Source: Candidatus Dojkabacteria bacterium (lineage in GTDB: Bacteria; Patescibacteriota; Dojkabacteria; B142; OLB20). Taken from it: a DNA stretch of 64,000 nt. The stretch is from positions 287,559-351,558 of the forward strand of contig CP129475.1 in assembly GCA_030583785.1 (NCBI GenBank), in the 5' to 3' direction. Under the pieces are notes generated by a model that saw only the letters and a list, made by a program, of their open reading frames with translations, made no database searches and was not told the DNA's origin. Of this stretch, positions 26,866 through 42,018 are shown in pieces. Both the position numbers and the translations under genes were made by a program. Positions within the stretch are counted from its first letter, which is position 1. The number at the start of each line of letters is the position of its first letter.

Positions 26866-28062
26866 TCAAAAGGGGAGGCTTCCTCCGGAGGCAAGTAAAA
26901 CACCTGCCAGAAAGAGAATTATACCAACAACAAGCACCAATCCAATAATTAGTACCAGATTTTTATTACCTGAAGGTGTTGGTACTGGAGCTGGATCAGG
27001 AATTGGGGGCAAACTATCTACAATATTTAAGTTTTTATTTTCAACAGGTGAAGCCATTTCTTGAACCATTTGTGGTGCTTCTGGCATATTACCCATAGGA
27101 GATTCGACTTGTGGAAGGCCCTCTCTGGCAAGCAACGCTTCTGATCCCAGTGTCGGAGCTTCAAATGTCGTCACAGGCTGTTCCATTGCTGGTGGTTGTT
27201 GCATTTCTTGCTCCTGTTGCATTACAGATGCTTGTGGCATTTCTGTAGTTGGTACAACTGGAGAAACTGCTGGAGTCTCTTGGGTTAAGAAATCGAAATC
27301 TTGGCTTAAAATTGGTGAATCAGGTTGAGAGCTGGTATCAGAAACAGCCGGTGTTGCTGGTGGAGTCTGAATTGGATCGACAGGAGTTGTAGCCGTTGTA
27401 AACACACTTGCTGACTGGACTGATTCAGTTGGCATACTAGATTCCGCGGTCATTACAGTATTTGTCGGCATAGCAGTATCCATAGGCATAGCAGCAGTAT
27501 CTGCAGACATAGCTGGTTCAATGGGCAAAACTGGTTCAATTTTTGTTTCGACTGGCATTGCAGTAGAAGTATCTGCAGGTATAGCTGGTTCAACAGATAA
27601 AGCCAATTCTTCTACGGACGAACCCGTAAGAGAGGATGGCATCTGCATATCATTTGTTGGAAGTTCATTAACAACAGGTTCAGGTGTTACCGGAACCGCG
27701 GCAGAAACATCTACTGGTAAAGATACAGCAGGTGTATTAACACCAGCCTGCATAGGCTGATCAAAATCTGGTCCAGGTGTCTCAATCACTCCTGAACTTA
27801 CAGGCGCTACCGGTTCATCTTCTATTACAGCTTTTACAGGAGTATCAGTTATTAATGGCGGATTACTATTTGGCATACTTTGATCTACAGGTGATTGTGC
27901 TGGAGCTGGAGTAGTTGGAACAACAGTATTACTAGGTTGACCTGTTAATGGTGTCGCTGGGTTTTGTGGTGACATTGGATTAAATTGATTATCATTTGTT
28001 GTTGCCATAGCTCTTTGATTACAAATATTAATTTCAGTTTTGCACAGCACAAAAAAAAACAC
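26866..28062 (-). CDS. Pro/Thr/Ser-rich low-complexity protein with a single C-terminal TM (tail-anchored), hypothetical
   Basis: No N-terminal signal peptide. Long P/T/M-rich repetitive region. C-terminal LVLIIGLVLVVGIILFLAGVLLASG helix. The true start may be the internal MATTNDNQ. Confidence 0.5.
   Translation of the reverse strand: MFFFVLCKTEINICNQRAMATTNDNQFNPMSPQNPATPLTGQPSNTVVPTTPAPAQSPVDQSMPNSNPPLITDTPVKAVIEDEPVAPVSSGVIETPGPDFDQPMQAGVNTPAVSLPVDVSAAVPVTPEPVVNELPTNDMQMPSSLTGSSVEELALSVEPAIPADTSTAMPVETKIEPVLPIEPAMSADTAAMPMDTAMPTNTVMTAESSMPTESVQSASVFTTATTPVDPIQTPPATPAVSDTSSQPDSPILSQDFDFLTQETPAVSPVVPTTEMPQASVMQQEQEMQQPPAMEQPVTTFEAPTLGSEALLAREGLPQVESPMGNMPEAPQMVQEMASPVENKNLNIVDSLPPIPDPAPVPTPSGNKNLVLIIGLVLVVGIILFLAGVLLASGGSLPF
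27490..27620. repeat. Imperfect tandem duplication of about 61 nt inside the Pro/Thr-rich gene
   Basis: gcagtatctgcagacatagctggttcaa (27514-27541) recurs as gaagtatctgcaggtatagctggttcaa (27575-27602). It encodes repeated MPxDTA-like peptide units. Confidence 0.4.
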
Positions 28063-28134: not shown

Positions 28135-31100
28135 ATGACTGCACCAAAAAATCCGGAAACACCAAAGCCAGAAAGCATAGTGATCGCTCCTGACTTTGCA
28201 AAGCCAGAAGAAAAAAGAGATGAACCTCTTCCGGCAAGTGTTGCAGCAGACGACGAACAAACAAATCGAGAGAGAGCTTTAGCTGAAGCACAAAAGAAGA
28301 AGCTCGAACAACTTATTGCCGAAACAAGAAAGCCTAAACCAAATCTCAAACCTACCAAAGACACATCTGCAACTACTCAAGAATTACAAAGATATGCCGA
28401 CAGCGAAATACAAAAAGCTAAGTTAGAGAGTGATGCCGTTTTGAAGGCTATACAGGCAGAAGAAGAAATTGTAGCCAACGCACTAGAAAACATTATTGAC
28501 TTCCCTGGTTCAGGAACTGAAGTCGATCCAGCTGATTATCAAAGGCAAATTGATGAGCTTGGTTTTCAAGAAGCCGAACTTACAAAAAATCAAAAAATAA
28601 AAGTTAATGGGGCCCTTGCTAAAGCATCTGGTATAGAAGCTGAACTTATAAAGGCACATGGCAAAAGCACTGACCCAGGACTTATTGCAATCTTACTACA
28701 CCCAATCAAGAAAAGACTTGTAGCCCTAGCCATCTTTTTTGCAGGCAAAAATCTTAGTCGCGAAAGAAAGATAAGATTATTAAAAAGTGCGGGCTTTTCT
28801 AAAGAAGAGATAATCGCAAAGGTTGGCGACTTTGCAGAAGCGGATACAGAAGAACAGATAGATCAACCAGATTCTGAATTAGTTGAGCAAATTGAAGACA
28901 ATGGTCAAACTCCAGAAGATACTCCTAATACTCAGTCTCCAAGCGAGATTGTATCTTCTCTAAAAAAAAGACGAGAGCAGATACGAGAACAAGTCAGAAG
29001 TAGAAAACCCGAGCCGTTTAGTCCCCAAGAAGGTAATATTACAAAACAAGCAATTAGTTCTGCAGAAGCATATCTAGGTGAATACCCTGAACTGCACGAA
29101 GGATTTAAGTCATGGAAAGCAAAAATCGAAGAAGCAAACGAACAAATATTTGATCACCTTGCCCTAGCAGGGTCTTATGACCCAGCAAGTTTTGTTGAGA
29201 TCGGTGGAGGCTTCATTCCCGGACAGGATCCGGAGCAGACCGAACAAATGTCAAGCGAACAGGCAATTAAAACAAAAATTGCAGAAACATATAAACAATT
29301 CTTTCCAAACGACGAAATCGACACAATTGTTGATACCTATTTAAATGAAGTATCCAGTGCAGAAGACACAGCTAATGAGAGTCCTGTTTACAGACGCATC
29401 GGCTTTGAAATGAGAGCCATGGCCGAACTGCTTATTGCCAAAGATCGAAAGAACAAAGAATACGCAAGAATCTACTATGCTGCCGCTATGCAGGCTATGA
29501 ATTCAGAAGATACTGCAACCAGACTCTTACAAAAAAACGACGAAGGAATTTACGAAAACGATCTATTTGCAGTGCTCGGGCAAGAACCAGTCCTTTCTGA
29601 TGAAGCACAAGAATTTGCAGATCAAAGACTCAAAGATTTTATTCTTGCTGATCTAATTACAGATAATCAGGCTTTGGCAGAAGCAAGTAGACTCTTCGGT
29701 GCCAACTTTGAGCTTCATATAGGCGGAAGCGGTCCAATTATTATCACCGACCAAGAGACAATCCAACGGCTGGCTTCTCTTACTTCTTCGGGACAAATAG
29801 ATGAAGCTAGAGCAGCAGAGCTTGGAATTGACGGATTGACAATTAAAGGAACGGTGATTGCTACCAGAGACACATTGCCTCACGAAATGCTGCATCTCGA
29901 AAATGCCGCAATCAGATACCAAGAGAAACAGGCAAAACAGCTTCGAATACAAACGATCATCTCAAAAGAATTAGACAAGTTAGATGTTTCAATCAACAAC
30001 AGATCGCAAGCGATACAATTAATCACAGAATCGTATTTTGAATCTGGACTGGATGCCGAATCAATAAACGCCAAACTTAGCGAAGAGGGATTTCAAGACG
30101 AGCAGCTTGCAAATTATGTTAAATCACTTGTAGCTAAAGAAACCAGGGCAGGAAAGCTACTGAATTACTATAAAGAAATATCTAGGCCGCCTTTGTCCGA
30201 AGAGCTTGCAGCAACGATGCTATCTTCTGCATCAGGAGTTGAAATAAAACCGATCAATGCTGCCCAAATTGGAATTAATCCAGAAAAGATAGGTCAAGAG
30301 GGGATTAGTGAACAAGAGATGGTTATTATTACACTTATTAATGCTTACAACGAAGCTGCCGCAAAAGCACTAAATGACGACAAATTCAGAACTGAAGTAT
30401 TTAAGCCGAACCTTGAGATCTTTACATATCTGCTTTCACGAAAAAAAGATATGACTTTTGTGCAGTTGCGAAGATTCTTAGGTGAAGGTCCTTTAGCATC
30501 ACTTACTGCAGAATTATTTCCTAATCTATTCGCACAAGAACAAACCAAACAAGAAAATGGCAAATACTCTACAGCTAACATTCAGGCAATTATTCTTAAC
30601 AGGCTAACAAGTATTCCCAACTTTGCATCACTTACAGAAGAACAAAAACAAGAGTTGATTGCTATTGAAACAGAGCTTCTAATTGGCGATCAGTCTAATT
30701 ATCTTGATATCAATGGCATATCCTTCAATAAAGGTAGTATGTACTCTGGACTTCAGAAGAAGTTTATGACTAATCGAAAATATAACCCGGCCGCGGTGAA
30801 AGGGAGCAGAGGTGAGGTTGGTTTATGGTACTCGTTTTTTGGCAACCGAGCAACAATAGCAGAAGACACCAGACCTTTTGGATACTTCACTCCATTTGCC
30901 AGTTCTATGAAAATGAATGAAGCCTTTGGGGCATATGTTGTGCGAGGATTTCAAAAGGTAGCTGGCAAAAAATGGGGATCAAGAATTGCAGGAACCTTCG
31001 GTTTCCACGACGCCTTCGGGGCCGATCCAATAGGCAAAGGACTAGGTGGGCAGCTGTCTACGCTATGGCCATTTAGTGTAATCAGAGAGAAATATATTAA

Positions 31101-32991
31101 AAAAATCGACGCAGTCGATAAAACTTACATGGAAAGACTTACCTCTGCCAGAATAGCTGATACAGTTGCACAACATTCGGCATCAATTATTGGAGAACTA
31201 GGAAAAGAATCAAGTCAGGTAGTATTAATACTCGAATCAATAGGAGGTTTTAAGCAAGAAGCTCAAGGCTACGAGAATTCATTACGAGACTTCAGAGAAC
31301 CAGATGAACATAGATTTAATCGGGTCTTTTCAAAGTCCATGAATCTCCCGCCAAGTGATTTAAGAGAAAATTGGCTTGCTAATGACTCCATAATGGGCAG
31401 AGATATGGACGACCTTATTACTGAAGGTCACGAACTTTTTCTGCGCAAGGGGCAAATGTCAGATAACCTTAAAGAACTTATCGTTGCTCTTGTTCCAAAG
31501 GTAGAGAAGGATAACCCGAAAAGAAATGAGCGAATGAAGAAAAAAATTTATGGAATAGAATATGACTTAAAAGAACAATTTGAAAAGATTGCTAATGCAA
31601 TGATGACGGCCGATTTAGCTGAATTCAACAAAGCAAAAGTTGGAACAGCAGTTCCACTAGGCACAGTAATAAGGCATTACACGATCGAGGATCTAATCAA
31701 CGCTGTAGATCAAGCCGAAGCCGATCTTGATGATCCAGACAAATTAACAGACTGGCCACATGTGCGTGTGAAGATAGGAGAATCTACCGAATTATACGAA
31801 ATCGACCTTATAAAAGAATTCGTCAAGTACTTTTACAGTGCCAAGGCAGCAAAAGTAATCGAATTTGGCGTATACGGACAAAAAGCAGTAAAAGCAGAGA
31901 AGGCTCTAGCTACGAGTGTATTTACTGTTCCACTTGGCTTTAAAGACAACTCGTCGACAAACAACCAAGAAACAAAATCAATAGCCGGAATGTATCCAGA
32001 ATCATTCAGTCTGATGGAGACGCAAGAATATGACTATAGCAAAACACCTCCGACAACAATAGGGACTCCTATTGACAACAAGGCCGCACTAAAAATGACA
32101 GACCAAGATATCGAAAGTCTTCAGGCAAGAGGATATGTACTAATTAAACATCCTGATGACCCTACTAGAATCCTTCGCATTGAATTTTCTGATAAACAGA
32201 GAAGACACTTAAGTATGGTGAATTTTGTTGAGTATGACCAAGATGTAAAAATCATGAAGCAGACTCCTCAAGGGTTTATTACTCCACTCGCACCTGTAGA
32301 TGCTGCCACTGAAGATAGAAACAATTTTCTGTTTGGTCATATGGAATATGATACCGCTACTGGCAAACCATTAACTACATTTACCACCGAAAGAACAGAG
32401 AAATTAGTCGGGAAAGTCCCGATTGCAATAAGGGACGATATAGATAATAAAAATAGAGGATTAGGAATTTATTTCGAATATCTTCAAAAGCTGATGCAGA
32501 CAACAGAACTTGCAGAAGTCACTAGAAAGAGGGCGAAATTCTGGGCATTTATTACAAAAGTAAACAAGGTTATACGCTGGGGTGTTTATAGCGGTGTTGC
32601 TTTAGGACTAACAGTTTATCCGCCTTTATTGTCACTATCTCTACTTAGTCCAAATGTGTTCATCTCTGTAGTACTTTGGGATTGGTTTATGTCAAAATAT
32701 CTTGATCGCTCCCGAGACGGTTGGAAAGGTCGAAACGGAATTGCAGAAGAAACAGCTCAAAAACTCGAAGGGATGCGTAATACTTTTGAGCAATGCAGAA
32801 ATGGTCAAACTTTACCAACTGATACTCTCAACATGTTAGCTGCTTATACAAAAAACATCGAGAAAATGTGGGAAGATGTTATGGAGAAGTTCGAAAAGCT
32901 ATACAAATATAAACCTAACATGACACAAGAAGTCAGTTCGGCCGTTTTTGATTATTCTAGAGCTTTTATGAAAATGAATACTGATATGTAA
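28135..32991 (+). CDS. Giant protein (1618 aa), hypothetical; no signal peptide, one hydrophobic segment near the C-terminus
   Basis: Uninterrupted 4.86-kb ORF with ordinary codon composition. Acidic coiled-coil-rich N-terminus. HEMLH (HExxH) at 29881-29895. Predicted TM at about 32570-32690. First gene of a translationally coupled six-gene cluster. Confidence 0.6.
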   Translation: MTAPKNPETPKPESIVIAPDFAKPEEKRDEPLPASVAADDEQTNRERALAEAQKKKLEQLIAETRKPKPNLKPTKDTSATTQELQRYADSEIQKAKLESDAVLKAIQAEEEIVANALENIIDFPGSGTEVDPADYQRQIDELGFQEAELTKNQKIKVNGALAKASGIEAELIKAHGKSTDPGLIAILLHPIKKRLVALAIFFAGKNLSRERKIRLLKSAGFSKEEIIAKVGDFAEADTEEQIDQPDSELVEQIEDNGQTPEDTPNTQSPSEIVSSLKKRREQIREQVRSRKPEPFSPQEGNITKQAISSAEAYLGEYPELHEGFKSWKAKIEEANEQIFDHLALAGSYDPASFVEIGGGFIPGQDPEQTEQMSSEQAIKTKIAETYKQFFPNDEIDTIVDTYLNEVSSAEDTANESPVYRRIGFEMRAMAELLIAKDRKNKEYARIYYAAAMQAMNSEDTATRLLQKNDEGIYENDLFAVLGQEPVLSDEAQEFADQRLKDFILADLITDNQALAEASRLFGANFELHIGGSGPIIITDQETIQRLASLTSSGQIDEARAAELGIDGLTIKGTVIATRDTLPHEMLHLENAAIRYQEKQAKQLRIQTIISKELDKLDVSINNRSQAIQLITESYFESGLDAESINAKLSEEGFQDEQLANYVKSLVAKETRAGKLLNYYKEISRPPLSEELAATMLSSASGVEIKPINAAQIGINPEKIGQEGISEQEMVIITLINAYNEAAAKALNDDKFRTEVFKPNLEIFTYLLSRKKDMTFVQLRRFLGEGPLASLTAELFPNLFAQEQTKQENGKYSTANIQAIILNRLTSIPNFASLTEEQKQELIAIETELLIGDQSNYLDINGISFNKGSMYSGLQKKFMTNRKYNPAAVKGSRGEVGLWYSFFGNRATIAEDTRPFGYFTPFASSMKMNEAFGAYVVRGFQKVAGKKWGSRIAGTFGFHDAFGADPIGKGLGGQLSTLWPFSVIREKYIKKIDAVDKTYMERLTSARIADTVAQHSASIIGELGKESSQVVLILESIGGFKQEAQGYENSLRDFREPDEHRFNRVFSKSMNLPPSDLRENWLANDSIMGRDMDDLITEGHELFLRKGQMSDNLKELIVALVPKVEKDNPKRNERMKKKIYGIEYDLKEQFEKIANAMMTADLAEFNKAKVGTAVPLGTVIRHYTIEDLINAVDQAEADLDDPDKLTDWPHVRVKIGESTELYEIDLIKEFVKYFYSAKAAKVIEFGVYGQKAVKAEKALATSVFTVPLGFKDNSSTNNQETKSIAGMYPESFSLMETQEYDYSKTPPTTIGTPIDNKAALKMTDQDIESLQARGYVLIKHPDDPTRILRIEFSDKQRRHLSMVNFVEYDQDVKIMKQTPQGFITPLAPVDAATEDRNNFLFGHMEYDTATGKPLTTFTTERTEKLVGKVPIAIRDDIDNKNRGLGIYFEYLQKLMQTTELAEVTRKRAKFWAFITKVNKVIRWGVYSGVALGLTVYPPLLSLSLLSPNVFISVVLWDWFMSKYLDRSRDGWKGRNGIAEETAQKLEGMRNTFEQCRNGQTLPTDTLNMLAAYTKNIEKMWEDVMEKFEKLYKYKPNMTQEVSSAVFDYSRAFMKMNTDM

Positions 32992-32993
32992 TT

Positions 32994-33470
32994 ATGTTAC
33001 TAATATTCGATCCTAGAATAGAAGAATTAATGATTAAACACTTGGGTTTCAACGAACTCAGGCTTGTTGATATGAAACGAACTTATCGTGAAGCCTTAGA
33101 AAAGATTCAAGTTGACGAACTTTTTCAATATATTGAAGAAAATAACCTAGAAGAAGAATCTCAATTTATTGATAGTTTGTGTGAAGATACAGATGACAGA
33201 AGCAAACAGGTAGAAAATCTTGAAAGGCTCTATACCTATATTTTCGAATGTAACATTAAGCATCCACAGTATCGTGATCGAGTAGAGCAAAAAATTAGAA
33301 AAATTAACCAAGATTTAATCGATACTCTGTTCGACAATCTGCCAGCAGAAGCTATGGCAGAGATAGCGGCTATGTTTGTTGATGACATTAACATTATGCT
33401 GACAATAAAAAAAGCTAATCCAAGTTTCGAATTACCAGACAGATTAAACCAATTCGTCGACTCCAAATAG
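32994..33470 (+). CDS. Small acidic cytoplasmic protein, hypothetical
   Basis: ATG 3 nt after the giant ORF stop. 158 aa, strongly acidic, no TM. Confidence 0.45.
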   Translation: MLLIFDPRIEELMIKHLGFNELRLVDMKRTYREALEKIQVDELFQYIEENNLEEESQFIDSLCEDTDDRSKQVENLERLYTYIFECNIKHPQYRDRVEQKIRKINQDLIDTLFDNLPAEAMAEIAAMFVDDINIMLTIKKANPSFELPDRLNQFVDSK

Positions 33471-33501
33471 TTGCCATCGCTAATTATTCTTTCTATACTG
33501 A

Positions 33502-35004
33502 TTGTATTCAGATTTTATCTGCGTGCGTATGCATAAACTTGCTCATTCATTGCTTAAACCATTAAAAGGATTCAGAAAGGTTAATCCTGCATGGTTTCTA
33601 ATCTCTCTGTTAACTGTTGTCTTTCTTTTCACTAATGCATATAGAGTCGAGGCTGCGACTGCATACGATAACTGGGCCGGAGCAACTAGCCTTAGACCAA
33701 ATGCGCTCTATGGAACATTAACTGCTCTAAAAGTTCAGATCGATTGTACAGACGCAGATGGCAACTTTATCTGTCAAAACGAAGGAGCAACAGCATCGGC
33801 AATGGGTAATGTCACCGGAATCATCGCTTCAATGTATGAAAGTAGACCTTCAAGTGCAATCATCTGGGCACAAGATCAAGTCAACATGATTGCCGGCTAT
33901 GATTCAATTCTTGTTCAAGCCCAAGATACAACCTATTCACCTGGTATTGGATTCGAACTCATGCGACCTATCCTTGGTTTCTGGACCTGGGCCAGAAATA
34001 TTGCTTATTCATTCTTCATAATAATTCTAATTATTGTTGCTTTCCTAATCCTGTTTAGACAGCAACTAGGTGGACAGACTATGGTTACAATTGCAAACTC
34101 TCTACCATCAATATTAGTTTCTTTAGCTTTAGTAACCTTTAGTTATCCACTGTCTGCAATTTTCATAGATATTATTACGGTGGGGACCAATTTTACTTTT
34201 AGTGTAATGGTAGGTGCCGAAGGTTCACCTGGTTTTGAGTATTTTGACCAAAACCAGAAAAGTGAATTACAGCCAGACGACCCCAAAACCAGTATCTGGG
34301 GTGTGTGGGAAGCGACACAATGGAATACATGCGTTGGTAGTAATGCCGACAGTTGTGGTGTTAATAGACTTATTCCAGACTTGCCAGAAACAAATATGTC
34401 ATGGATAGCTGAAAGCATTCGACTTCTCGTTCCAGCAGGTGGAGAAGGTAACCCTACAAATATTCTTGTGAGTCTTTTAATCGCAATAACAGCCCTTGGA
34501 GCAGCGTTTAAACTAATGCTTGCCCTGCTAAACAACTATATAATTCTCACCACATTTCCGATATTTTCTCCGTTTGTTTTCTTAACAGCCGCAATACCTA
34601 GTGGTGGCGGGCCAATAAGTCCTGTAATCTCAAATTATTTCAAAATGCTTCTTGCATCAGCGCTAGTTTTTATTGCCATTTATGCAATTTTGCTATTCTT
34701 AATCGTTCTATCAGTATCCTTCGACCAAGAATTTAGCGGTGCCGGAAACGCAGTCTGGCAGCCACCACTTCTTGGCTATTCTGATGCAGCGGTTGGTGGA
34801 GGATTATTCAAAACAATTACTGTATTCGGAATATTTCTGTACTTGCCTTCAATTCCAGATTTAATTAAAGATAATCTAGGTGTAGCCAAAGGTAATGTAT
34901 TCTTCGAAACTATGTTTAGAAGAACCAATGAGTCAGCAAAATTCACTGCCGGTGCTGTAACCGGACTCGGAAGAAAGCTGAATGTCTTTGGTAATCCTGG
35001 CTAA
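33502..35004 (+). CDS. Polytopic membrane protein with signal peptide, Cys-containing extracytoplasmic N-domain and 6 TMs (VirB6/TrbL-like topology)
   Basis: Signal peptide ending ...AYRVEA|ATA. About 130-aa mature N-domain with two Cys pairs. Hydrophobic helices at about aa 160-185, 200-228, 305-330, 340-360, 375-400 and 425-445. A second Cys-containing loop (WNTCVGSNADSCGV). Confidence 0.5.
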   Translation: MYSDFICVRMHKLAHSLLKPLKGFRKVNPAWFLISLLTVVFLFTNAYRVEAATAYDNWAGATSLRPNALYGTLTALKVQIDCTDADGNFICQNEGATASAMGNVTGIIASMYESRPSSAIIWAQDQVNMIAGYDSILVQAQDTTYSPGIGFELMRPILGFWTWARNIAYSFFIIILIIVAFLILFRQQLGGQTMVTIANSLPSILVSLALVTFSYPLSAIFIDIITVGTNFTFSVMVGAEGSPGFEYFDQNQKSELQPDDPKTSIWGVWEATQWNTCVGSNADSCGVNRLIPDLPETNMSWIAESIRLLVPAGGEGNPTNILVSLLIAITALGAAFKLMLALLNNYIILTTFPIFSPFVFLTAAIPSGGGPISPVISNYFKMLLASALVFIAIYAILLFLIVLSVSFDQEFSGAGNAVWQPPLLGYSDAAVGGGLFKTITVFGIFLYLPSIPDLIKDNLGVAKGNVFFETMFRRTNESAKFTAGAVTGLGRKLNVFGNPG

Positions 35005-35010
35005 TAACCA

Positions 35011-36198
35011 ATGACATCTACAATTAATAACTCAGAAGAAATACTTAAGATTAATAAATCCATTTTTGAATTGGAGAATTTTTTCGTTGCAAATCTTGGA
35101 CCGCAGATACTTGATTACATATTTCTTTTTAGTAAAGAAGAAAGTCAAACCATCAAATTTGAACAAGTAACTGAAGAAGTATCCAAGGCAATGACTAGAT
35201 TCGTTGAACTTGTTAAACAATTGATGAACCTGCTCGAAGTTGAAGATGCAACCCCAACAGATGGAGGACTTAGCGAGAAATTTATTGACAGTATGCACGA
35301 CCTCTATCTACTTCGTTTTATCGAAGCAAAGAAGCAGTATGCAGACTACCAACTGGTAAGAGTCCCTACAAATACGGAACTAAGAATTCTTGATTTAATT
35401 CCTACAAAAGATGAAGATCTCAAGATTCTTCCCACTGCCATAAATATACAGCTCCCAGATATTTTTATCGTCGATGAAATGGGCAACTTAGATGTTGCCG
35501 CATCAATCCAACTAGAGGATTCTTATCATAAAATCGCCAGCTACTTAAGTACCATTGCCGAGATACCTAACCTGAAAGAACAAATGATTCAAGACTTAGC
35601 AGATATTACAATCTTCGAAAATGCTCCCAGTCTGCTTAGAAACGAACTACTTGATATTAGTGAAATGTTACTCACTTTAACTGTTAACTACTTCGCTGCC
35701 AGGGTGTATGGATATCTTTCCAGAGGGCAGTCTGTAAAAGAGGCAAAAACAAATGTACTTGCGTATTATAAAATGAACAGTATTGGGGCAGGCTCTGAGT
35801 TCCCTGAAAGCTTAAAGGATTTAGAAGAATCGATTGACGAGATATTAGACGAAGAACTTGAATCAATCACTGCACTTTATCCCGAAACAAGAGTCGCCTT
35901 AAAAGAAGATTATAAAGAACTATTATTATTCTATATTCATGATGCACTAATCATTCCCGAGAACTTTTATAAGATTGTCTACCGAGACTTAAAGGATTAT
36001 CAGGAAAATGATGAAAAATACAACATTCTTATTGACCTTTACCTGTTGCTTGAAGAAGGGCAAATGATTCCATTGCCTTCAGAGACATATAATATTGACT
36101 TAACCCAAGAAGCAAGAACTCTAATATTCAATGCTGTAACTGGTGGCCTTGAGAACCCAAACTTTACATTAATTGACTATTTGTCAGAAGTATCTTAA
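35011..36198 (+). CDS. Acidic cytoplasmic protein, hypothetical
   Basis: 395 aa, Glu/Asp/Leu-rich, no TM. Start 7 nt after the upstream stop. Confidence 0.45.
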   Translation: MTSTINNSEEILKINKSIFELENFFVANLGPQILDYIFLFSKEESQTIKFEQVTEEVSKAMTRFVELVKQLMNLLEVEDATPTDGGLSEKFIDSMHDLYLLRFIEAKKQYADYQLVRVPTNTELRILDLIPTKDEDLKILPTAINIQLPDIFIVDEMGNLDVAASIQLEDSYHKIASYLSTIAEIPNLKEQMIQDLADITIFENAPSLLRNELLDISEMLLTLTVNYFAARVYGYLSRGQSVKEAKTNVLAYYKMNSIGAGSEFPESLKDLEESIDEILDEELESITALYPETRVALKEDYKELLLFYIHDALIIPENFYKIVYRDLKDYQENDEKYNILIDLYLLLEEGQMIPLPSETYNIDLTQEARTLIFNAVTGGLENPNFTLIDYLSEVS

Positions 36199-37160
36199 TG
36201 CAAAAGGACGAAAGATTTGGCATAGTAGCCTTAACAACAACTGAACTTTCAGATCTGATTTCGAGCTGGAAATCTGTTAAGGATAAAAAGCCTATGGCTC
36301 CGGGTGATGCAGATAAATTGGTCGAAATATTAGAAAAGATCAGTAGTGAATTCGATAGTAAAAAAATTCCAGAGAAGACTGAAGTCCCACTCGCTCTAAT
36401 GGCACAAATGATTAGCGAAGATCCTAAACTTGTTCTATCGGCAATTAATCGCATTAACAGTTACATCTATTTACCCGAATCAAATAATGCAGTTGATCTA
36501 CAGGTTATAGAAAAGATTTATGCAACCTGGCAACAAAGAAAGGCTCAATTAGAAATGAAGGGTATTCTTCGTGTAACAGGAGCCCAAGATGAAATTCAAA
36601 TCACAGAATGGGAGAACACACTAATCTCAATGATTAACAAGGGAAGACAGAATAAATCAGTCTCTGGTGGTCAGAGTTCATATATTATTCCAACAAGCAT
36701 AGAAAACAGAGCTCTGAACATCATAAACTCTGTTAACAATGTTAACCTTAACGAGATTCGCACACCTATCAACTACGCAATGCTTGGACAAATTTTCAGT
36801 CGCAGAGATGCACTAACAAGTGAACTTAGAATACAGAACGCCAGGCTTGAAAGAAATTTTAAAAAGATTCGAATGAATGTATCGATGCATAGTGATCTGA
36901 AGAATATAATCATGGGTTCATCTATTAGGATTGAACAGATTCAAGGCAAAATGGAAGAGATGAAAAAACTTGATCCACAAGCTTTTGTAAACAATCCTGC
37001 ATTCTTACAGTTAAGGCAAGAGTTGCTTGGTCTTGAAAAGGACTTGAATGAGAGCAAACAACCACAACTTGAGGCTTTAATCAAAGAAGCAGAAGATCTT
37101 GAAAAAGAGAGAAAGTTAATATCAGATAAAATAATAGAAATTCAAAAGAAACTTCGCTAA
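36198..37160 (+). CDS. Coiled-coil protein, hypothetical
   Basis: Start overlaps the upstream stop (TAATG). C-terminal half has heptad-like K/E/L-rich coiled coil. Confidence 0.45.
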   Translation: MQKDERFGIVALTTTELSDLISSWKSVKDKKPMAPGDADKLVEILEKISSEFDSKKIPEKTEVPLALMAQMISEDPKLVLSAINRINSYIYLPESNNAVDLQVIEKIYATWQQRKAQLEMKGILRVTGAQDEIQITEWENTLISMINKGRQNKSVSGGQSSYIIPTSIENRALNIINSVNNVNLNEIRTPINYAMLGQIFSRRDALTSELRIQNARLERNFKKIRMNVSMHSDLKNIIMGSSIRIEQIQGKMEEMKKLDPQAFVNNPAFLQLRQELLGLEKDLNESKQPQLEALIKEAEDLEKERKLISDKIIEIQKKLR

Positions 37161-40081
37161 TGGCAACAGCAGGAAACAACGAAAATATTAATGTATACAA
37201 GTACTTCTTTGACCTTGAGCCAGAGATCCGTGAGATCGAATCTCAACTTAGGGTCATGGAAAATGACATCAAAGGATATAAAAATGATTGTCGAAACACA
37301 TTAAAACTAGTTCTTAGCACTTTAAGAAAAGCAAACTCTGTAACAAGGAACGATTCCTTCACTGCCGACGACGAAAGGATTGAAGCAGAGCTTAACGAAG
37401 AGTCAGAAGATCAGCAAAATCAAAGTCAGCAACAGACACCTACAAGCCAACAACCTCAACCTGAGCCCCAACCTGAACGACCTACGAGTTTCAAGGAAAG
37501 ATTTCGTGCCGAACTTAGAGGAGGAAAAGTCAATCCATTCATTAAAGCCGAGTACGATAATAAGGTTGTCAGAATGCAAAGAGCTCTTCGTAAAGGAGAC
37601 TATCTTGGACTACTGCTTGACCCAGATGTGCTTCCATGGACTCCACAAAGAAGGGCTAACAAAAAAATAATGGATGAATCGTGGCGTGTAGTTCGACAAA
37701 TTCCAAAAGAAGCAGCTAAGAGTGCGGGCGCCTTTGTATTAAAAGCCGCAATATCCGGAGGAAGCTATATTGGTGGCAAAGGCAAATCCGGAGTTCAAAG
37801 GGCAGCAGGGTTTGTATACAGGAATAGTAGTTTTGTACAGGAAAAAACCGAGTGGCTAAAGAAGCAATCAAAAAGTGTAAAAAGAACTCTTCGAAAGAAC
37901 ACAAAGGTTAGACTTGCTGCAACCAGAAGGGCTGCAGAAAGAAAACGCAAGAAAGATAAGCATGCTCTGCAAAAATTCCTGCTTGAAGGAACTCTTAGGT
38001 TCGCAAAAGATTTTGTCTTAGACAAAATCAACCAGTTAAGCGAGGCTGGCCAAAAACTCTATCGCGGAGTGAGGCAGGTTACTCACAATCGCTTCGTAAA
38101 TTCTCAGGTTGGAAAGAGTATAATCAACTCAAATACTGCCAAAAATATAAAAGTTGGATTAGAAACTTTTAAGAATACAGACACATATCGCAGTATAGCT
38201 TCCAGAACAAGCGCGGTAATCAATAACACCCCAGAAGCATTAAGAGCTACAGGCAGAAACATTGTTAGGGTAGGTGATTCAGTTAGAAACTCAAGAGCAG
38301 TTCGTTGGTCACAAGCTGGTATTTCAACTGGCGCAAAAGCGGTTGTCAAACCAGTCGAACTAGTTATTAAAAATAGATCAGCAATCTGGAACGGAGCTCG
38401 GGCCACAGCCAGAGGTGTCGTATCAGTAGGTAAAGCTGCTCCAAGAGGAGCAATGTCAGGTCTAGCCATGAGCCTCGTTACTCAAAATATTGCAGCTGGA
38501 GTGGCTTTCGGTCTAGCAGCAACTGCCGTGGGAAGTGTAGCAGCTTATAGCACCTCTAACGCAACCAGAGGACTTAAGAATGCAATGGGCGATTGGGATA
38601 ATTCCGCATTTGGAAAGAATCGGATATCTCCAGAAGCACAACAAAGAATTATCAATCGCGGAAATGTATATTCTAATGCCACCAGAGCTTTCCGAGCCTT
38701 AGATGCGGGAACGACTGTTGCTTCACTTGGAGCAATAGCTGCAACCGTTCTTGGAGGCAACCCCTTACTTGCAGCAGGATTTGGTTTTGCTGCCGGTGCA
38801 GGTGGCAGATTCCTTATTGATCGCTTTGTTGGGAACAGAGTAGCTCAGTATATGCAGGGTAATACAAGCGGTCTTCTGAACAAGATTGCTCACTTACCAA
38901 GTGGAGCTCTTCTAAATCAAGCAGTAAGTAGTCAATGGCTCGGGGAACAAATTCGCCTGTTAAGATCGGATTACGATAACGACCTAGGTAGATACCTTCA
39001 GGACAACTTTACCTTGACCGGAGGCGGTGGCATGCAAACTTTCACAGTCATTACAAATTATATCGGAGCAGCCAGCTACATTTCTGGGATTCACGCCGGA
39101 ACCAACGCACTTCTTTCAAGATATGGCAGCAGCGTTGCAATGGAATTCGCAAATAGGGGAATCGAAGGTAGTTTAGAACGAATCGGCTTAGGATTATCCA
39201 AGGGAGTTTCAAGTACTGGCTTTACCTGGAGGGGAGCACTTGGTTCTGTCGCCAATATCATCAAACAGCCATTTAGATTTATTGCCAGTGGGCCGTTATC
39301 GTTAACGAATCCAATAACGCTAGGAGCAACAGTTGGAGGGGTAGTAGGGACAGTTCTTGCAACTGCACTTGGCTTTGGTGGTCCGGCAGCACTTGCAGCA
39401 GGCGGTATCGGTGGGATAGCCGGTGCTGTCGCAGGAGCCTCTGCAGCCGGTGCACTTATTGGAGCTGCAACTTTAGGAACTGTCACTGCAGGAATAGGTA
39501 TAGGTATAGGTGCTGCCGTTGGAAGCTTCATCGGAACATTGTTTGGCTCGTATATTGGCAGCCTAGCTGATCGAACAGTAAATAGTGTCCTTGAAGGTTT
39601 TACAAATAGGGTGATAGGGCTATTCAACGGAGTAATGGCACTATTCAACTTAATGAAGATGCTTAGAAACGGGATTAATCCAGAAGATGCTCTCGGATTT
39701 CTTATGGCTTTCGGTATGTTGTTCACAATTATCTCCAGAAACTGGGAGCAGGGTGGAGAAGCGGTCTTTATTGAACAAGAGAATATTAAACAAGGCTACG
39801 AATCGATCGAGGAACCAAGGCAAGCTTACAAACTCGATCATTACAATATCAGTCTGATCAATACTAACGAACAATGGACTCCAGAAAGAATCCGTATCTT
39901 AATGGATTCACTTGCACAAACACAATCTGATGATTTTGAGAATGGAGATAGAAACATCCTCCTAGCAATTGGCCGAGAAGAATCTGTTGAAGTCGACGGT
40001 AATCTATTAATCTATATAGATCCAAACACATTTACCGGTAATTACAGAAACGAACCGATTCTCAGCTTTAACAATCTGTAA
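37160..40081 (+). CDS. Large basic protein (973 aa) with N-terminal coiled coil, Lys/Arg-rich region and Gly/Ala-zipper multi-TM block (tape-measure-like architecture)
   Basis: TAATG start/stop overlap with the coiled-coil gene. QQPQPEPQPE low-complexity linker. Poly-basic stretch (RKNTKVRLAATRRAAERKRKKDKH). Small-residue-rich middle. Hydrophobic GxxxG/AxxxA-rich block (about 39290-39600; ...GGIGGIAGAVAGASAAGALIGAATLGTVTAGIGIGIGAAVGSFIGTLFG...) plus two more helices. Confidence 0.55.
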   Translation: MATAGNNENINVYKYFFDLEPEIREIESQLRVMENDIKGYKNDCRNTLKLVLSTLRKANSVTRNDSFTADDERIEAELNEESEDQQNQSQQQTPTSQQPQPEPQPERPTSFKERFRAELRGGKVNPFIKAEYDNKVVRMQRALRKGDYLGLLLDPDVLPWTPQRRANKKIMDESWRVVRQIPKEAAKSAGAFVLKAAISGGSYIGGKGKSGVQRAAGFVYRNSSFVQEKTEWLKKQSKSVKRTLRKNTKVRLAATRRAAERKRKKDKHALQKFLLEGTLRFAKDFVLDKINQLSEAGQKLYRGVRQVTHNRFVNSQVGKSIINSNTAKNIKVGLETFKNTDTYRSIASRTSAVINNTPEALRATGRNIVRVGDSVRNSRAVRWSQAGISTGAKAVVKPVELVIKNRSAIWNGARATARGVVSVGKAAPRGAMSGLAMSLVTQNIAAGVAFGLAATAVGSVAAYSTSNATRGLKNAMGDWDNSAFGKNRISPEAQQRIINRGNVYSNATRAFRALDAGTTVASLGAIAATVLGGNPLLAAGFGFAAGAGGRFLIDRFVGNRVAQYMQGNTSGLLNKIAHLPSGALLNQAVSSQWLGEQIRLLRSDYDNDLGRYLQDNFTLTGGGGMQTFTVITNYIGAASYISGIHAGTNALLSRYGSSVAMEFANRGIEGSLERIGLGLSKGVSSTGFTWRGALGSVANIIKQPFRFIASGPLSLTNPITLGATVGGVVGTVLATALGFGGPAALAAGGIGGIAGAVAGASAAGALIGAATLGTVTAGIGIGIGAAVGSFIGTLFGSYIGSLADRTVNSVLEGFTNRVIGLFNGVMALFNLMKMLRNGINPEDALGFLMAFGMLFTIISRNWEQGGEAVFIEQENIKQGYESIEEPRQAYKLDHYNISLINTNEQWTPERIRILMDSLAQTQSDDFENGDRNILLAIGREESVEVDGNLLIYIDPNTFTGNYRNEPILSFNNL

Positions 40082-40092
40082 GATAAGAGGAT

Positions 40093-42018
40093 TTATTCTT
40101 GATTCTCGTTTTGACTTGCTATTCCATAACTTCCGTATGGATTGGCACTTTCAGCAGTTTTATTATCATAATCCAAAGATGAACCCTGTGGCACCACAGG
40201 CTTACTATCGCTAGCACTATCTGTGTTTTTTAGCCAGTCGGGGATTTCGTCATCGTTATAGATTGCTGGGGCAGCAACCTTCATCTCTTGAACGGGTTCC
40301 TGTTTACTAATAAAAGGGTCTTCGTACTCACCTATAGTCTGTGTTCCGATACTTGGCTCATACACTTCTGGTGTTGCATAAGTTGTTGTCTGGTCTGGCA
40401 TAACAATGGTTGTCTCTGAATATGGAATATCGGGATTAGGTACCAATGGCTGTGAATTATCTGTGTAAGTTACTGATCCATAGTCTGTAGCAATATCTGA
40501 AGAGCTTCTTCTGTTGCGAATTAGAAGTATATATAACATCCAAGGTACAACGATTAATAATAAGCCACAACAAAGGATTAACAATATAACTTGCGTCAAT
40601 TCAGCGCCCAGAAAAGAGAAAATATTTGCAGGATAAGAATCTGGATTACTATCTGGCATACTGTCTGGGAAAGAATCTGGTTCTGACTCGCCTGTATAAA
40701 AGAACCATTCTCTAACAGAGAACTTTCCGGCAGAATCAGTTACTCGAATTTGTATCTTGTGTCTTCCGTCGGCCAGATCTTCCGCAGGTTGACATTCTAG
40801 CTTTTCATCGGCAAAATCACATACTGTAAGTTTTTCTTCGTCAAGGAGAACTTCTATGCCTTCTTGCAACAATTCAGCATTTGTGGATGGTTTGATCGTA
40901 ACTGTGATTATTGGTTTTTTAAGAAGTGTCCTTTCTTCTTCTTGAGGAGATATTATTGTGATTAGTGGCGCTTCTTCTCCTGTATCTGAAGTAGAAATTG
41001 TTACATCAAACAGTTCGCTGATCTTTTCAATAGTTTTTCCCTCATTATTTGTCGCGATTATCCTTAATAAATACTTACCAGTCTCTACACCTTGCAGATT
41101 CCAGTCATAACTTGTTGTGCTACCGTTAAGATTAGCGATTTGAACCCAATTTTTACCTTCGTCCTTTGAATACGATAACAAAATGGAAGTCGGATTAAAC
41201 CTTTCAATATTCCAAGATAACTTATTGTTGTTTTTAGTAATAACGGTATCTTTTCCGGGAACAACAAAATTAATTGCTGCAGGCGGTAGATCGGGTTCGG
41301 TAACATTAAGAGTAAAAAACTGTTTGACTACACCTCCAAAACCATCGGATACAGTTATTGTAATTGGATAGGAACCAGCCGTAGTAATAGTTTTTTCTGT
41401 ATATATTAGTCCTGTATCTCTATTCATGTACAAGAAGAAATCTCCACCTTTATCTATTACATATGTGAGTTTATGGCCATCAGGATCTGTTGCCTGAACT
41501 TGATATGTAAAGTCTTCACCGACTTTAATTGATGAATTCGGAGGTTGAGAATTAATAACAGGAGGCCTATTGGTATTTCCAACGGCTACAGTATGTTTAT
41601 CGCAAAGTGAATAAAAATTATTGGGAAGTTCACGAAAAGTTGCACATATCCTTACACAGTAGAAACCATCTGGAATTGAACTTCTATTTTGTATGGGACC
41701 ATCAGTATCCCAGAGGTCTGTAAAGTAAGCTCCGTTTGCGCTGGCAGTTTTTGAACCCGATGCTATTGTCCCAAAATATGGACCATTAACTGAACAAGCA
41801 GAACTGAAAAGATCGATCTGGTAGGGTATGTCTGCTTTATCGACCTCTTTAAGAAAATATCGAACCTGTGAAATACCAGTGACAACAGCGTTATTTATAG
41901 GTGATGCAATATAAACTTCATCGTTGCCCTTTGTTACTGCGTACACCGGTGAACCCGAAACAAGCATAAAAAATGCGACAAGAGTCAGACCGATAATTTT
42001 TTTATATTGATTATTCAT
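40093..42018 (-). CDS. Type-I membrane surface protein with Ig/cadherin-like (dystroglycan-type) domain(s)
   Basis: N-terminal signal peptide. PPVINSQPPNSSIKVGEDFTYQVQATDPDGHKLTYVI...ITITVSDGFGG is a putative-Ig/cadherin-like repeat. More beta-rich domains follow. TM (ILLILCCGLLLIVVPWMLYILLI) and an about 110-aa cytoplasmic tail. Confidence 0.6.
   Translation of the reverse strand: MNNQYKKIIGLTLVAFFMLVSGSPVYAVTKGNDEVYIASPINNAVVTGISQVRYFLKEVDKADIPYQIDLFSSACSVNGPYFGTIASGSKTASANGAYFTDLWDTDGPIQNRSSIPDGFYCVRICATFRELPNNFYSLCDKHTVAVGNTNRPPVINSQPPNSSIKVGEDFTYQVQATDPDGHKLTYVIDKGGDFFLYMNRDTGLIYTEKTITTAGSYPITITVSDGFGGVVKQFFTLNVTEPDLPPAAINFVVPGKDTVITKNNNKLSWNIERFNPTSILLSYSKDEGKNWVQIANLNGSTTSYDWNLQGVETGKYLLRIIATNNEGKTIEKISELFDVTISTSDTGEEAPLITIISPQEEERTLLKKPIITVTIKPSTNAELLQEGIEVLLDEEKLTVCDFADEKLECQPAEDLADGRHKIQIRVTDSAGKFSVREWFFYTGESEPDSFPDSMPDSNPDSYPANIFSFLGAELTQVILLILCCGLLLIVVPWMLYILLIRNRRSSSDIATDYGSVTYTDNSQPLVPNPDIPYSETTIVMPDQTTTYATPEVYEPSIGTQTIGEYEDPFISKQEPVQEMKVAAPAIYNDDEIPDWLKNTDSASDSKPVVPQGSSLDYDNKTAESANPYGSYGIASQNENQE

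What the first reader, a model, noticed from the sequence alone, without database searches (positions are those of the whole stretch)
33502..35004. VirB6/TrbL-like topology in the 500-aa membrane protein of the operon
Features seen directly: a cleavable signal peptide (…NAYRVEA|ATAYD), an about 130-aa extracytoplasmic domain with two Cys pairs (CTDADGNFIC), six hydrophobic helices, and a second Cys-containing outside loop (CVGSNADSC). This arrangement is the hallmark topology of VirB6/TrbL/TcpH-type inner-membrane channel components of conjugation-like systems. No cognate VirB4 ATPase is nearby, so either the partner is encoded elsewhere or the fold has been recruited to a different apparatus.
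Basis: partly seen in the sequence, partly recalled or inferred. Interest (0 to 1): 0.6.

Follow-up and report, generated by a model that had tools for sequence, protein, structure and literature searches.

The report
Divergent VirB6-like protein in Dojkabacteria operon
The 491-aa membrane protein is real and belongs to a very large, unnamed family of Patescibacteria proteins whose other members sit inside type IV secretion gene clusters; it is probably a remote VirB6 relative, but here it lies in a Dojkabacteria-specific six-gene operon of unknown proteins with no secretion ATPase.

Summary
The window is chromosome of a Candidatus Dojkabacteria (WS6, Patescibacteria) bacterium. The ORF is real, but it probably starts at ATG 33529 (491 aa).

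There is one Cys pair per outside region, not two in the N-domain. AlphaFold gives five long helices, not six.

Direct tests against VirB6/TrbL fail:
- The protein has no Pfam hit.
- One of about 138 relatives reaches TrbL, below threshold.
- hhalign against the TrwI family and against TcpH gives under 1% probability.

Indirect evidence favours remote VirB6 kinship:
- The five best Foldseek PDB hits are all TrwI/VirB6 chains, though weak (E 0.05).
- UniRef names two orthologues TrbL/VirB6.
- All seven distant relatives whose loci were read lie in Patescibacteria T4SS clusters; five show VirB4 and six show VirB2-like pilin genes.

The target's own clade is different. In nine loci it keeps a conserved operon: a giant HExxH protein, a ~150-aa protein, the target, a ~390-aa protein, and a ~900-aa Gly-rich membrane protein. 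None of these loci shows a VirB4, pilin or PrgI gene within 10 kb.

Verdict: a probable VirB6-like paralogue in a lineage-specific module. This is a new variant of a known kind, of moderate interest.

The parts
28135..32991 (+). op1: 1618-aa giant, mostly hydrophilic acidic protein. It has no signal peptide and a hydrophobic hairpin near the C-terminus (about aa 1496-1540). First gene of the operon.
   Evidence: ORF. No Pfam, NCBIfam, PHROGs or PDB hit. Orthologues occupy the same position in L004/L015, L011, L013, L014, L016 and L017.
29881..29895 (+). HExxH motif (HEMLH, aa 583-587) inside op1; a candidate zinc-metallopeptidase site.
   Evidence: Conserved as HEVEH, HEIRH, HEIMH, HELGH and HELGH in all orthologues that cover the region, although the flanks are only about 20% identical.
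32994..33470 (+). op2: 158-aa acidic soluble protein, always immediately upstream of the target.
33471..33499 (+). Promoter-like site TTGCCA-17-TATACT in the 58-bp op2-op3 spacer. This is a consensus match only.
   Evidence: 10 of 12 matches; the region as a whole has fewer such sites than shuffles.
33529..35004 (+). op3, the target: 491-aa VirB6-like polytopic membrane protein. The mechanical ORF starts at TTG 33502.
33529..33654 (+). Signal peptide or signal anchor, with predicted cleavage VEA|A.
33655..33978 (+). N-terminal extracytoplasmic domain of about 108 aa. It carries the C82/C91 pair (not conserved) and the conserved PASxIxWAxDQ and YxPGxG motifs.
33979..34215 (+). Helices 1 and 2: the first membrane hairpin with its short cytoplasmic turn FRQQLGGQ. 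It contains the family-invariant residues P193, Y206 and D214 (491-aa numbering).
34216..34455 (+). Central extracytoplasmic loop of about 80 aa, with the LQPDDP motif and the C277/C285 pair.
34456..34875 (+). Helices 3-5. They include the invariant PF-x7-P motif (IFSPFVFLTAAIP) and the outside PPLLGY turn.
   Evidence: hhalign repeatedly aligns this motif to TrwI and TcpH, without significance.
34876..35001 (+). Basic C-terminal tail (7 K/R), predicted cytoplasmic.
35011..36198 (+). op4: 395-aa very acidic soluble protein (net charge -39), always immediately downstream of the target.
36198..37160 (+). op5: 320-aa charged protein, probably coiled-coil. Its start and stop codons overlap the neighbouring genes. 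Poorly conserved; an orthologue is seen only in OLB20.
37160..40081 (+). op6: 973-aa protein with a charged/basic N-half, Gly/Ala-rich hydrophobic segments (aa 444-462 and 719-797) and a C-terminal domain. Last gene of the operon; the next gene is convergent.
   Evidence: The only weak resemblance is to the membrane protein after virB4 in T4SS clusters (BLAST E 0.004; hhalign probability 16.7%).

Best explanation
**What it is.** The gene encodes a remote, probably true homologue of VirB6/TrbL. It belongs to a very large Patescibacteria-wide family of ~500-aa polytopic membrane proteins, and the distant members read here lie in that phylum's monoderm-type (MPF-FATA-like) type IV secretion clusters.

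**Predicted layout (inferred).**
- A cleaved signal peptide.
- An outward-facing N-domain.
- Five hydrophobic helices.
- An ~80-aa outward central loop, braced by a disulfide.
- A basic cytoplasmic tail.

**Likely role (inferred).** By analogy with TrwI/VirB6 it most likely oligomerises into a platform or proto-channel at the cytoplasmic membrane.

**The Dojkabacteria case.** In Dojkabacteria this particular lineage is a separate paralogous clade. It is locked into a conserved, tightly coupled operon with lineage-specific partners:
- a giant HExxH protein;
- two acidic soluble proteins;
- a coiled-coil protein;
- a Gly-rich membrane protein.

The operon has no pilins, no VirB3/PrgI and no VirB4. 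It therefore probably works as the membrane core of a specialised envelope module that derives from, or is accessory to, the T4SS. Its energy would come in trans from a VirB4 or coupling-protein ATPase encoded elsewhere, or it needs none.

**Shown versus inferred.**
- Shown: family membership, conservation of the operon, and the gene context of relatives.
- Inferred: VirB6 homology, oligomeric state and function.
For: **Family.**
- The A1 profile finds 6,711 cluster representatives at E<=1e-3 and 2,826 at E<=1e-30, matched over full length.

**Link to T4SS.**
- All seven distant members read lie in T4SS clusters: P0056/L005, P0054/L006, P0053/L023, P0044/L024, P0042/L025, P0048/L001 and L022.
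- Layout where the locus shows it: a large secreted protein, then the family member, then a large cytoplasmic protein on the opposite strand.
- PF18895 pilin genes are seen in six loci, five of them as arrays.
- PrgI, a TraC-like protein and VirB4 (DUF87/AAA_10/P-loop_TraG) appear in four or five loci.
- Sources.

**Link to VirB6.**
- The top five Foldseek PDB hits are all TrwI/VirB6 chains.
- For the T4SS-cluster member P0053, the same chains have the best TM-scores, 0.40-0.43.
- P0048 hits PF04610 at 24.4 bits, E 2.9e-5. It is firmly inside the family, at 1e-40 to 1e-51 to many members.
- UniRef names P0002 and P0059 TrbL/VirB6.
- The predicted topology (N-out, five spans, large central outside loop, C-in) is as I recall for A. 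tumefaciens VirB6.
- About 40 long relatives carry a hydrophilic C-terminal extension, like the 'extended VirB6' proteins described in PMC12857230.

**Separate clade and operon.**
- An NJ tree separates operon-type plus long variants from T4SS-type plus 'third-type' members.
- Gene order is conserved in L004/L015, L007, L008, L011, L013, L014, L016 and L017, and the chromosomal neighbours where visible (L004/L015, L007, L008).
- A second paralogue lineage is widespread in Dojkabacteria.

**Literature (PMC12102498).**
- VirB4 is present in 2,417 of 3,035 Patescibacteria genomes.
- 176 of 480 detected VirB6 homologues are not encoded near virB4.
- Two Dojkabacteria genomes are listed as VirB4-positive.
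- Sources.
Against: **Sequence tests for VirB6/TrbL are negative.**
- No Pfam hit for the target.
- 0 of 83 further relatives hit TrbL at E<=0.01.
- hhalign gives under 1% probability against the TrwI family and against TcpH.
- No PDB sequence hit.

**Structural similarity is below the usual significance levels.**
- E 0.05, TM 0.25/0.37, rmsd about 10 A.
- For the T4SS-cluster member P0053 the E-value is about 3.

**The operon itself offers no T4SS support.**
- None of the five operon partners resembles any T4SS-cluster protein, even by profile-profile comparison.

**Untested or ambiguous points.**
- Whether this genome carries virB4, or a second family paralogue, could not be checked.
- T4SS clusters also hold a second multi-span protein after virB4, which could be the 'real' VirB6 analogue.
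Confidence: 0.5

Rival explanations
1. It is simply the ordinary VirB6 subunit of a dispersed Dojkabacteria T4SS. It works with VirB4, PrgI and pilins encoded elsewhere in the chromosome. The operon neighbours are accessory proteins, or substrates of that same machine, rather than a separate apparatus.
For: - In Patescibacteria, 176 of 480 detected VirB6 homologues are not near virB4, and coupling-protein genes are usually far from it (PMC12102498).
- Dojkabacteria genomes are listed as VirB4-positive.
- In L009 a T4CP-like ATPase (TrwB_AAD_bind/DUF87) lies 0.8 kb from a long variant in the same syntenic spot.
- The other Dojkabacteria paralogue cluster (L021) also lacks VirB4, so T4SS genes seem scattered in this class.
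Against: - The operon-type clade is separate from all T4SS-cluster members in the tree. Dojkabacteria have another paralogue lineage that groups with the T4SS type.
- The tight, conserved coupling to five lineage-specific genes suggests its own complex.
- One T4CP neighbour among about a dozen loci is roughly what chance gives.
Confidence: 0.25
2. The family is not homologous to VirB6. It is a Patescibacteria-specific membrane protein that merely shares an all-helical multi-span shape. It is associated with T4SS clusters in some lineages as a different component.
For: - All profile tests are negative.
- Foldseek E-values are 0.05 to 3, with TM below 0.45.
- Helical membrane bundles give spurious low-level matches.
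- The single sub-threshold TrbL hit comes from about 138 sequences scanned.
Against: - The best structural matches are specifically VirB6 chains in two independent models. All other hits have TM <=0.2.
- The expected number of chance Pfam hits of that strength across 138 sequences is about 0.004, and the hit fell on the one family predicted beforehand.
- hhalign picks the same PF-x7-P helix in TrwI and in TcpH.
- The family member is a multi-span, VirB6-sized protein in every T4SS cluster read.
Confidence: 0.2
3. It is a solute transporter or permease unrelated to secretion.
For: It is a multi-span membrane protein. A solute-binding protein gene lies in the conserved downstream neighbourhood.
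Against: - No match to any transporter family in Pfam or NCBIfam.
- No internal repeat typical of transporters was noticed (not formally tested).
- Large disulfide-bearing outside domains.
- The SBP gene is convergent and belongs to another transcription unit.
- Relatives sit in T4SS clusters.
Confidence: 0.03

Closest known systems
TrwI/VirB6 of plasmid R388 (PDB 7O3V, 8RT9, 8RTD); Pfam PF04610 TrbL/VirB6
   Same: - Closest solved fold by Foldseek: the top five hits.
- Multi-helix hydrophobic protein with a cytoplasmic basic C-tail.
- A proline-flanked helix motif (PF-x7-P against GPLF-x7-P) in the same relative position.
   Different: - No significant sequence or profile similarity.
- 491 aa against 342 aa.
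- It has an added signal peptide, a ~108-aa N-terminal outside domain and an ~80-aa Cys-bearing central loop.
- It is not next to VirB2/3/4/5.
The VirB6-position protein of Patescibacteria T4SS clusters (system described in PMC12102498; essential in Ca. Southlakia epibionticum according to that paper and PMC12857230)
   Same: Same protein family by direct sequence search (phmmer E 1e-9 to 1e-21). It shares the invariant G141, P193, Y206, D214 and P348.
   Different: - Those members are flanked by VirB2-like pilin arrays and, in most loci, PrgI, a TraC-like protein and VirB4.
- The target clade has none of these within 10 kb. It has its own five partner genes instead.
- I did not verify that this family is the same protein the published surveys called VirB6.
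Extended VirB6 proteins of monoderm systems (TcpH of pCW3, ConG of ICEBs1)
   Same: A hydrophobic multi-helix core plus additional hydrophilic domains. Long (760-920 aa) relatives of the target carry a ~300-aa C-terminal extension.
   Different: - hhalign against TcpH gives probability 0.5-0.6%.
- TcpH is encoded beside TcpF (VirB4) and TcpG (a hydrolase).
- The target's extra domains are extracytoplasmic and N-terminal or central.

Membership tests
Pfam PF04610 TrbL/VirB6 | Score at or above the gathering threshold of the family HMM (25.9 bits) | tested here: not met
   - The target has no hit at E<=1.
- Orthologues P0002 and P0059 have none.
- Only P0048 hits, at 24.4 bits.
- 0 of 83 further relatives hit at E<=0.01.
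VirB6 superfamily (broad sense) | Profile-profile similarity to bona fide VirB6 (TrwI family) or to TcpH | tested here: not met
   hhalign probabilities are 0.2-0.7%. Only a short PF-x7-P helix is repeatedly aligned.
VirB6 superfamily (broad sense) | Fold similarity to a solved VirB6 | tested here: inconclusive
   - The five best PDB hits are all TrwI chains, but with E 0.05-0.4, TM 0.23-0.25 (by query) / 0.33-0.37 (by target) and rmsd about 10 A.
- The P0053 model gives TM 0.40-0.43 and E about 3.
VirB6 superfamily (broad sense) | Polytopic protein with about 5-6 hydrophobic helices, a large central outside loop and a cytoplasmic C-terminus | tested here: met
   Hydropathy, charge distribution and the AF2 helices agree. 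This feature is not specific to VirB6.
VirB6 superfamily (broad sense) | Pentameric assembly contacting VirB5/VirB2 or the translocon | not testable with these tools
   No multimer prediction or experiment was available.
Patescibacteria MPF-FATA-like T4SS gene cluster | VirB4 ATPase encoded nearby (within about 20 genes) | tested here: not met
   - No VirB4/AAA_10/DUF87 protein in the 64-kb window.
- No Walker A motif in the operon.
- None within 10 kb in nine orthologous loci.
Patescibacteria MPF-FATA-like T4SS gene cluster | VirB2-like pilin array (PF18895), PrgI/VirB3-like and TraC/TrsD-like genes adjacent | tested here: not met
   Absent from the window operon and its orthologous loci. Present around distant family members.
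Unnamed Patescibacteria ~500-aa membrane protein family (this work) | Full-length HMM match, with invariant G141, P193, Y206, D214 and P348 plus the PPLLGY turn | tested here: met
Dojkabacteria-type operon | Gene order giant protein, ~150 aa, target, ~390 aa, ~850-1300-aa Gly-rich membrane protein | tested here: met
   Window and L004/L015, L007, L008, L011, L013, L014, L016 and L017.

The most novel reading that the evidence does not exclude
The Dojkabacteria operon encodes a previously undescribed envelope machine that has no ATPase of its own. It would be built around a duplicated VirB6-like platform and a giant membrane-anchored HExxH metallopeptidase-like protein. It would work independently of the T4SS, for example as a host-contact or effector-processing device of an epibiotic bacterium.
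Probability: 0.2. Interest if true: 0.7.

Novelty: new variant of a known kind. Interest (0 to 1): 0.42.

Why it matters
**The Patescibacteria T4SS.**
- Patescibacteria depend on host cells. Their T4SS is reported as the first T4SS essential for its bearer's survival (PMC12857230).
- Published HMM surveys detected only 480 VirB6 homologues against 2,474 VirB4 proteins. They found VirB6 scarce or absent in some classes and attributed this to extreme divergence (PMC12102498).
- The family defined here has more than 6,700 cluster representatives. It has no Pfam model, and its distant members read here sit in T4SS clusters.
- It is therefore a good candidate for that 'missing' subunit. This would give a handle for annotating it across the phylum.

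**The Dojkabacteria operon.**
- This clade shows that the same membrane core has been placed in a completely different, conserved gene set.
- That makes the operon a concrete candidate for a T4SS-derived or T4SS-accessory module. Its partners, including a giant HExxH protein, are entirely uncharacterised.

Tried and rejected
**Family and profile searches on the six operon proteins: nothing.**
- Pfam, NCBIfam and PHROGs.
- Five PDB sequence searches with op1, op4 and op6 and with the A1 and A8 profiles.
- PDB sequence searches with A7 and P0048 gave only chance hits.

**Direct VirB6 comparisons: all under 1% probability.**
- hhalign of the target family against a 40-sequence TrwI alignment, in several sub-alignments.
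- hhalign against pCW3 TcpH.

**Operon partners against T4SS-cluster proteins.**
- Iterated HMM searches and hhalign against every protein type in T4SS-type and 'third-type' loci found no relation.
- The best result was op6 against the post-VirB4 membrane protein: probability 16.7% over 23 columns.

**Other negative checks.**
- The C-terminal extensions of the long variants resemble none of the partners.
- tblastn against 72,556 plasmids gave no match.

- Searching for a second paralogue or virB4 in this same genome, by looking for hits on the 1,172,464-bp contig. None was among the 120 hits listed.
- The genome-contig scan needed a narrow alignment and returned only 12 loci.

**Readings rejected.**
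- Phage tape-measure or defence-system readings of the operon: no PHROGs hits (PADLOC was not run), and the position is a conserved, syntenic chromosomal site.
- A mobile-element origin: the flanks are housekeeping genes, GC is uniform at about 38%, and synteny is conserved.
Full report
**Source and setting**

The window is a chromosomal segment of a Candidatus Dojkabacteria (WS6, Patescibacteria/CPR) bacterium.
- The target protein is 100% identical to QY330_01560 (WKZ28276.1), which is found on a 1,172,464-bp contig.
- GC content is uniform at about 38%.
- The flanks are housekeeping genes: Obg, cobalamin adenosyltransferase, ADP-forming acetyl-CoA synthetase, CTP synthase, Mur ligase, AlaRS, MutL and ThrRS.

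The target is the third gene of a tightly packed plus-strand operon spanning 28135-40081.

| Gene | Size (aa) |
|---|---|
| op1 | 1618 |
| op2 | 158 |
| op3 (target) | 491 |
| op4 | 395 |
| op5 | 320 |
| op6 | 973 |

Several neighbouring genes in the operon share overlapping stop and start codons.

**Check of the observation**

*Start codon.* The ORF is real, but the likely start is ATG 33529 rather than TTG 33502.
- NCBI calls the protein at 491 aa.
- Homologue N-termini align from M10.
- A promoter-like site at 33471-33499 lies just upstream.

*Signal peptide.* A cleavable signal peptide is plausible. The n-region is basic, the h-region is about 17 residues, and the site is VEA|A. Homologues have equivalent small residues.

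- The N-terminal outside domain is about 108 aa and has one Cys pair, not two. That pair is not conserved.
- The CVGSNADSC pair is conserved in 26-28 of 32 close relatives.
- Hydropathy gives about seven segments. AlphaFold2 (pLDDT 75.7, helices above 90) gives five long helices plus a basic C-terminal helix.
- Charge distribution fits N-out, five spans, an ~80-aa central outside loop and C-in.

*ATPases.* No VirB4 or VirD4 is encoded in the window, and no Walker A motif occurs in the operon.

**Direct test of the TrbL/VirB6 idea**

The sequence-based tests are negative.
- The target has no Pfam hit at all at E<=1, and no meaningful NCBIfam hit.
- Of 55 homologues only one, P0048, touches PF04610: 24.4 bits against a cut-off of 25.9, E 2.9e-5, over profile positions 74-206.
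- None of 83 further representatives hits TrbL at E<=0.01.
- I built a 40-sequence TrwI/VirB6 alignment from R388. hhalign against the target family gives 0.2-0.7% probability.
- hhalign against pCW3 TcpH gives 0.5-0.6%.
- PDB sequence searches are empty or show only chance hits.

One weak regularity stands out. hhalign repeatedly picks the same helix:
- target: IFSPFVFLTAAIP, where P348 is invariant in 129 representatives;
- TcpH: LLLPFIMLIAIVP;
- TrwI: GLGPLFILALIWQP.

**Indirect evidence for VirB6 kinship**

- *Structure.* Foldseek of the AF2 model against 350,542 PDB chains puts five TrwI/VirB6 chains of the R388 T4SS in the first five places (E 0.05-0.4, prob up to 0.97, TM normalised by target about 0.37). 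No other hit has comparable TM.
- *Second model.* A model of P0053, a family member that lies inside a T4SS cluster, again gives VirB6 chains the best TM (0.40-0.43), although E is about 3.
- *Existing names.* UniRef already names the orthologues from WS6 OLB20 and OLB21 'TrbL/VirB6 plasmid conjugal transfer protein'.
- *P0048.* It is firmly inside the family, at E 1e-40 to 1e-51 to many members.

**The family and its genomic contexts**

A profile of 55 homologues finds 6,711 cluster representatives at E<=1e-3 and 2,826 at E<=1e-30, matched over full length. This is a large family with no Pfam model.

*T4SS-cluster context.* I read the locus of seven distant members, each at phmmer or BLAST E 1e-9 to 1e-21 to the target. 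All seven lie in the Patescibacteria type of T4SS cluster. The recurring layout, where the locus shows it, is:
1. an array of five to eight PF18895 (VirB2-like) pilin genes (five loci; L001 shows one pilin gene);
2. a large secreted protein;
3. the family member;
4. a large cytoplasmic protein on the opposite strand;
5. PrgI/VirB3-like, TraC-like and VirB4 (DUF87/AAA_10/P-loop_TraG) genes, seen in four or five loci;
6. a multi-span protein with a weak CHAP match (three or four loci).

It matches the system described by Quinonero-Coronel et al. 2025 (PMC12102498) and reviewed in PMC12857230.

*Operon-type context.* The target's own clade is different.
- In L004/L015 (OLB20), L007, L008, L011, L013, L014, L016 and L017 the order is conserved: giant protein, ~150 aa, target, ~390 aa, large Gly-rich membrane protein.
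- Where the precomputed neighbours are visible (L004/L015, L007, L008), the chromosomal neighbours are conserved too: cobalamin adenosyltransferase upstream (L004/L015, L007), and an Ig-domain or large unannotated protein plus a solute-binding protein downstream (with DUF3048 in L004/L015 and L007).
- None of these loci shows a VirB4, pilin or PrgI gene within 10 kb.

*Other contexts.*
- Long variants of 760-920 aa carry a hydrophilic C-terminal extension and occupy the same spot alone (L009, L026). In L009 a T4CP-like ATPase lies 0.8 kb away.
- A 'third type' (L018-L021, including Dojkabacteria UBA2259) sits with an fn3 protein, an M23-like 915-aa protein and an SH3 protein. It too lacks VirB4. 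It is widespread in Dojkabacteria.

*Tree.* A rough NJ tree puts operon-type plus long variants in one clade and T4SS-type plus third-type in the other. The class therefore holds two paralogue lineages. I could not show both in one genome.

**The partner proteins**

- None has a hit in Pfam, NCBIfam, PHROGs or the PDB.
- None relates to any protein of the T4SS-type or third-type loci, by iterated HMM or by hhalign.
- The best result is a 23-column match of op6 to the post-VirB4 membrane protein, at 16.7% probability.
- op1, op2, op4 and op5 lack signal peptides and are acidic or coiled. op1 and op6 carry hydrophobic anchors.
- op1 has an HExxH motif that is conserved in all six orthologues covering the region.

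**Interpretation**

The protein is most likely a remote VirB6-like membrane platform. I put VirB6 homology at roughly 0.7. I put membership of a T4SS-associated family at about 0.85 or more.

In Dojkabacteria this lineage has been fixed in a lineage-specific operon without its own ATPase. Two readings remain open, and both need whole-genome data to separate:
- it serves a dispersed T4SS in trans;
- it forms a separate apparatus.

The topology observation is largely right. 'Hallmark' is too strong, and the PF04610 test fails. Context and fold nonetheless point to the VirB6 world.

**Novelty**

The protein kind is known: there is an automated TrbL/VirB6 name, and the Patescibacteria T4SS has been published. 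Two things appear to be undescribed:
- the recognition that a family of more than 6,700 cluster representatives, invisible to Pfam, has members sitting inside Patescibacteria T4SS clusters;
- the conserved VirB4-less Dojkabacteria operon.

I rate this a new variant of a known kind, with interest 0.42.

Noticed in passing
window 29881-29895 (op1 aa 583-587): An HExxH motif (HEMLH) in the 1618-aa first gene of the operon. It is conserved as HEVEH, HEIRH, HEIMH or HELGH in all six orthologues that cover the region, despite about 20% flanking identity. It may be a zincin-like metallopeptidase site in a giant membrane-anchored protein. No Pfam or PDB match.
   Followed up: partly
window 15013-15858 and 15788-17470: A P-type cation ATPase is split into two overlapping ORFs. 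The first holds Cation_ATPase_N plus E1-E2_ATPase; the second holds Hydrolase plus Cation_ATPase_C. This could be a frameshift, a pseudogene or an assembly error.
   Followed up: no
window 33471-33499: A sigma-70-like TTGCCA-17-TATACT (10 of 12 matches) sits in the 58-bp spacer before the target gene. It may be an internal promoter, and it argues for the ATG 33529 start.
   Followed up: partly
window 40093-44631 (minus strand): The convergent trio He_PIG/Big_13 Ig-domain protein, solute-binding protein and DUF3048 protein, or at least a large (often Ig-domain) protein plus the solute-binding protein, is conserved downstream of the operon or of its long-variant equivalent in L004, L007, L008, L009 and L026. 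This may be a functionally linked surface module.
   Followed up: partly
window 26866-28062 (minus strand): A divergently transcribed 398-aa protein: acidic (net charge -37), with a Pro/Thr/Gln-rich N-terminus and a single C-terminal hydrophobic anchor. It has no Pfam hit. Only its C-terminal ~110 aa are conserved in OLB20 (L004).
   Followed up: partly
window 39091-39726 (minus strand): A 211-aa antisense ORF lies inside op6, over the Gly/Ala-rich, GC-richer (45%) segment. It is very likely a compositional artefact, not a gene.
   Followed up: no
L021 6148-16094; L018 6091-15888: A second family paralogue sits in a different conserved cluster: a small protein, an fn3/Pur_ac_phosph_N protein, a ~440-aa protein, the paralogue, a ~910-aa protein (its L018 orthologue has a weak M23-like C-terminal match), a ~330-aa protein, and an SH3_3 protein. 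L021 is Dojkabacteria UBA2259; L018 is an unclassified bacterium. The cluster is flanked by housekeeping genes and has no VirB4.
   Followed up: partly
L009 6686-9205: An 839-aa T4CP-like ATPase (DUF8128, DUF87, TrwB_AAD_bind) is encoded 0.8 kb from a 793-aa long variant of the family, in the Dojkabacteria-type syntenic spot.
   Followed up: no
L005, L006, L023, L024, L025 (T4SS-type loci): In Patescibacteria T4SS clusters the family member is bracketed by two unannotated proteins. One is a large secreted protein (786-1160 aa, with a signal peptide). The other is a large cytoplasmic protein (867-1153 aa, on the opposite strand). Both evolve fast and have no Pfam hits.
   Followed up: partly
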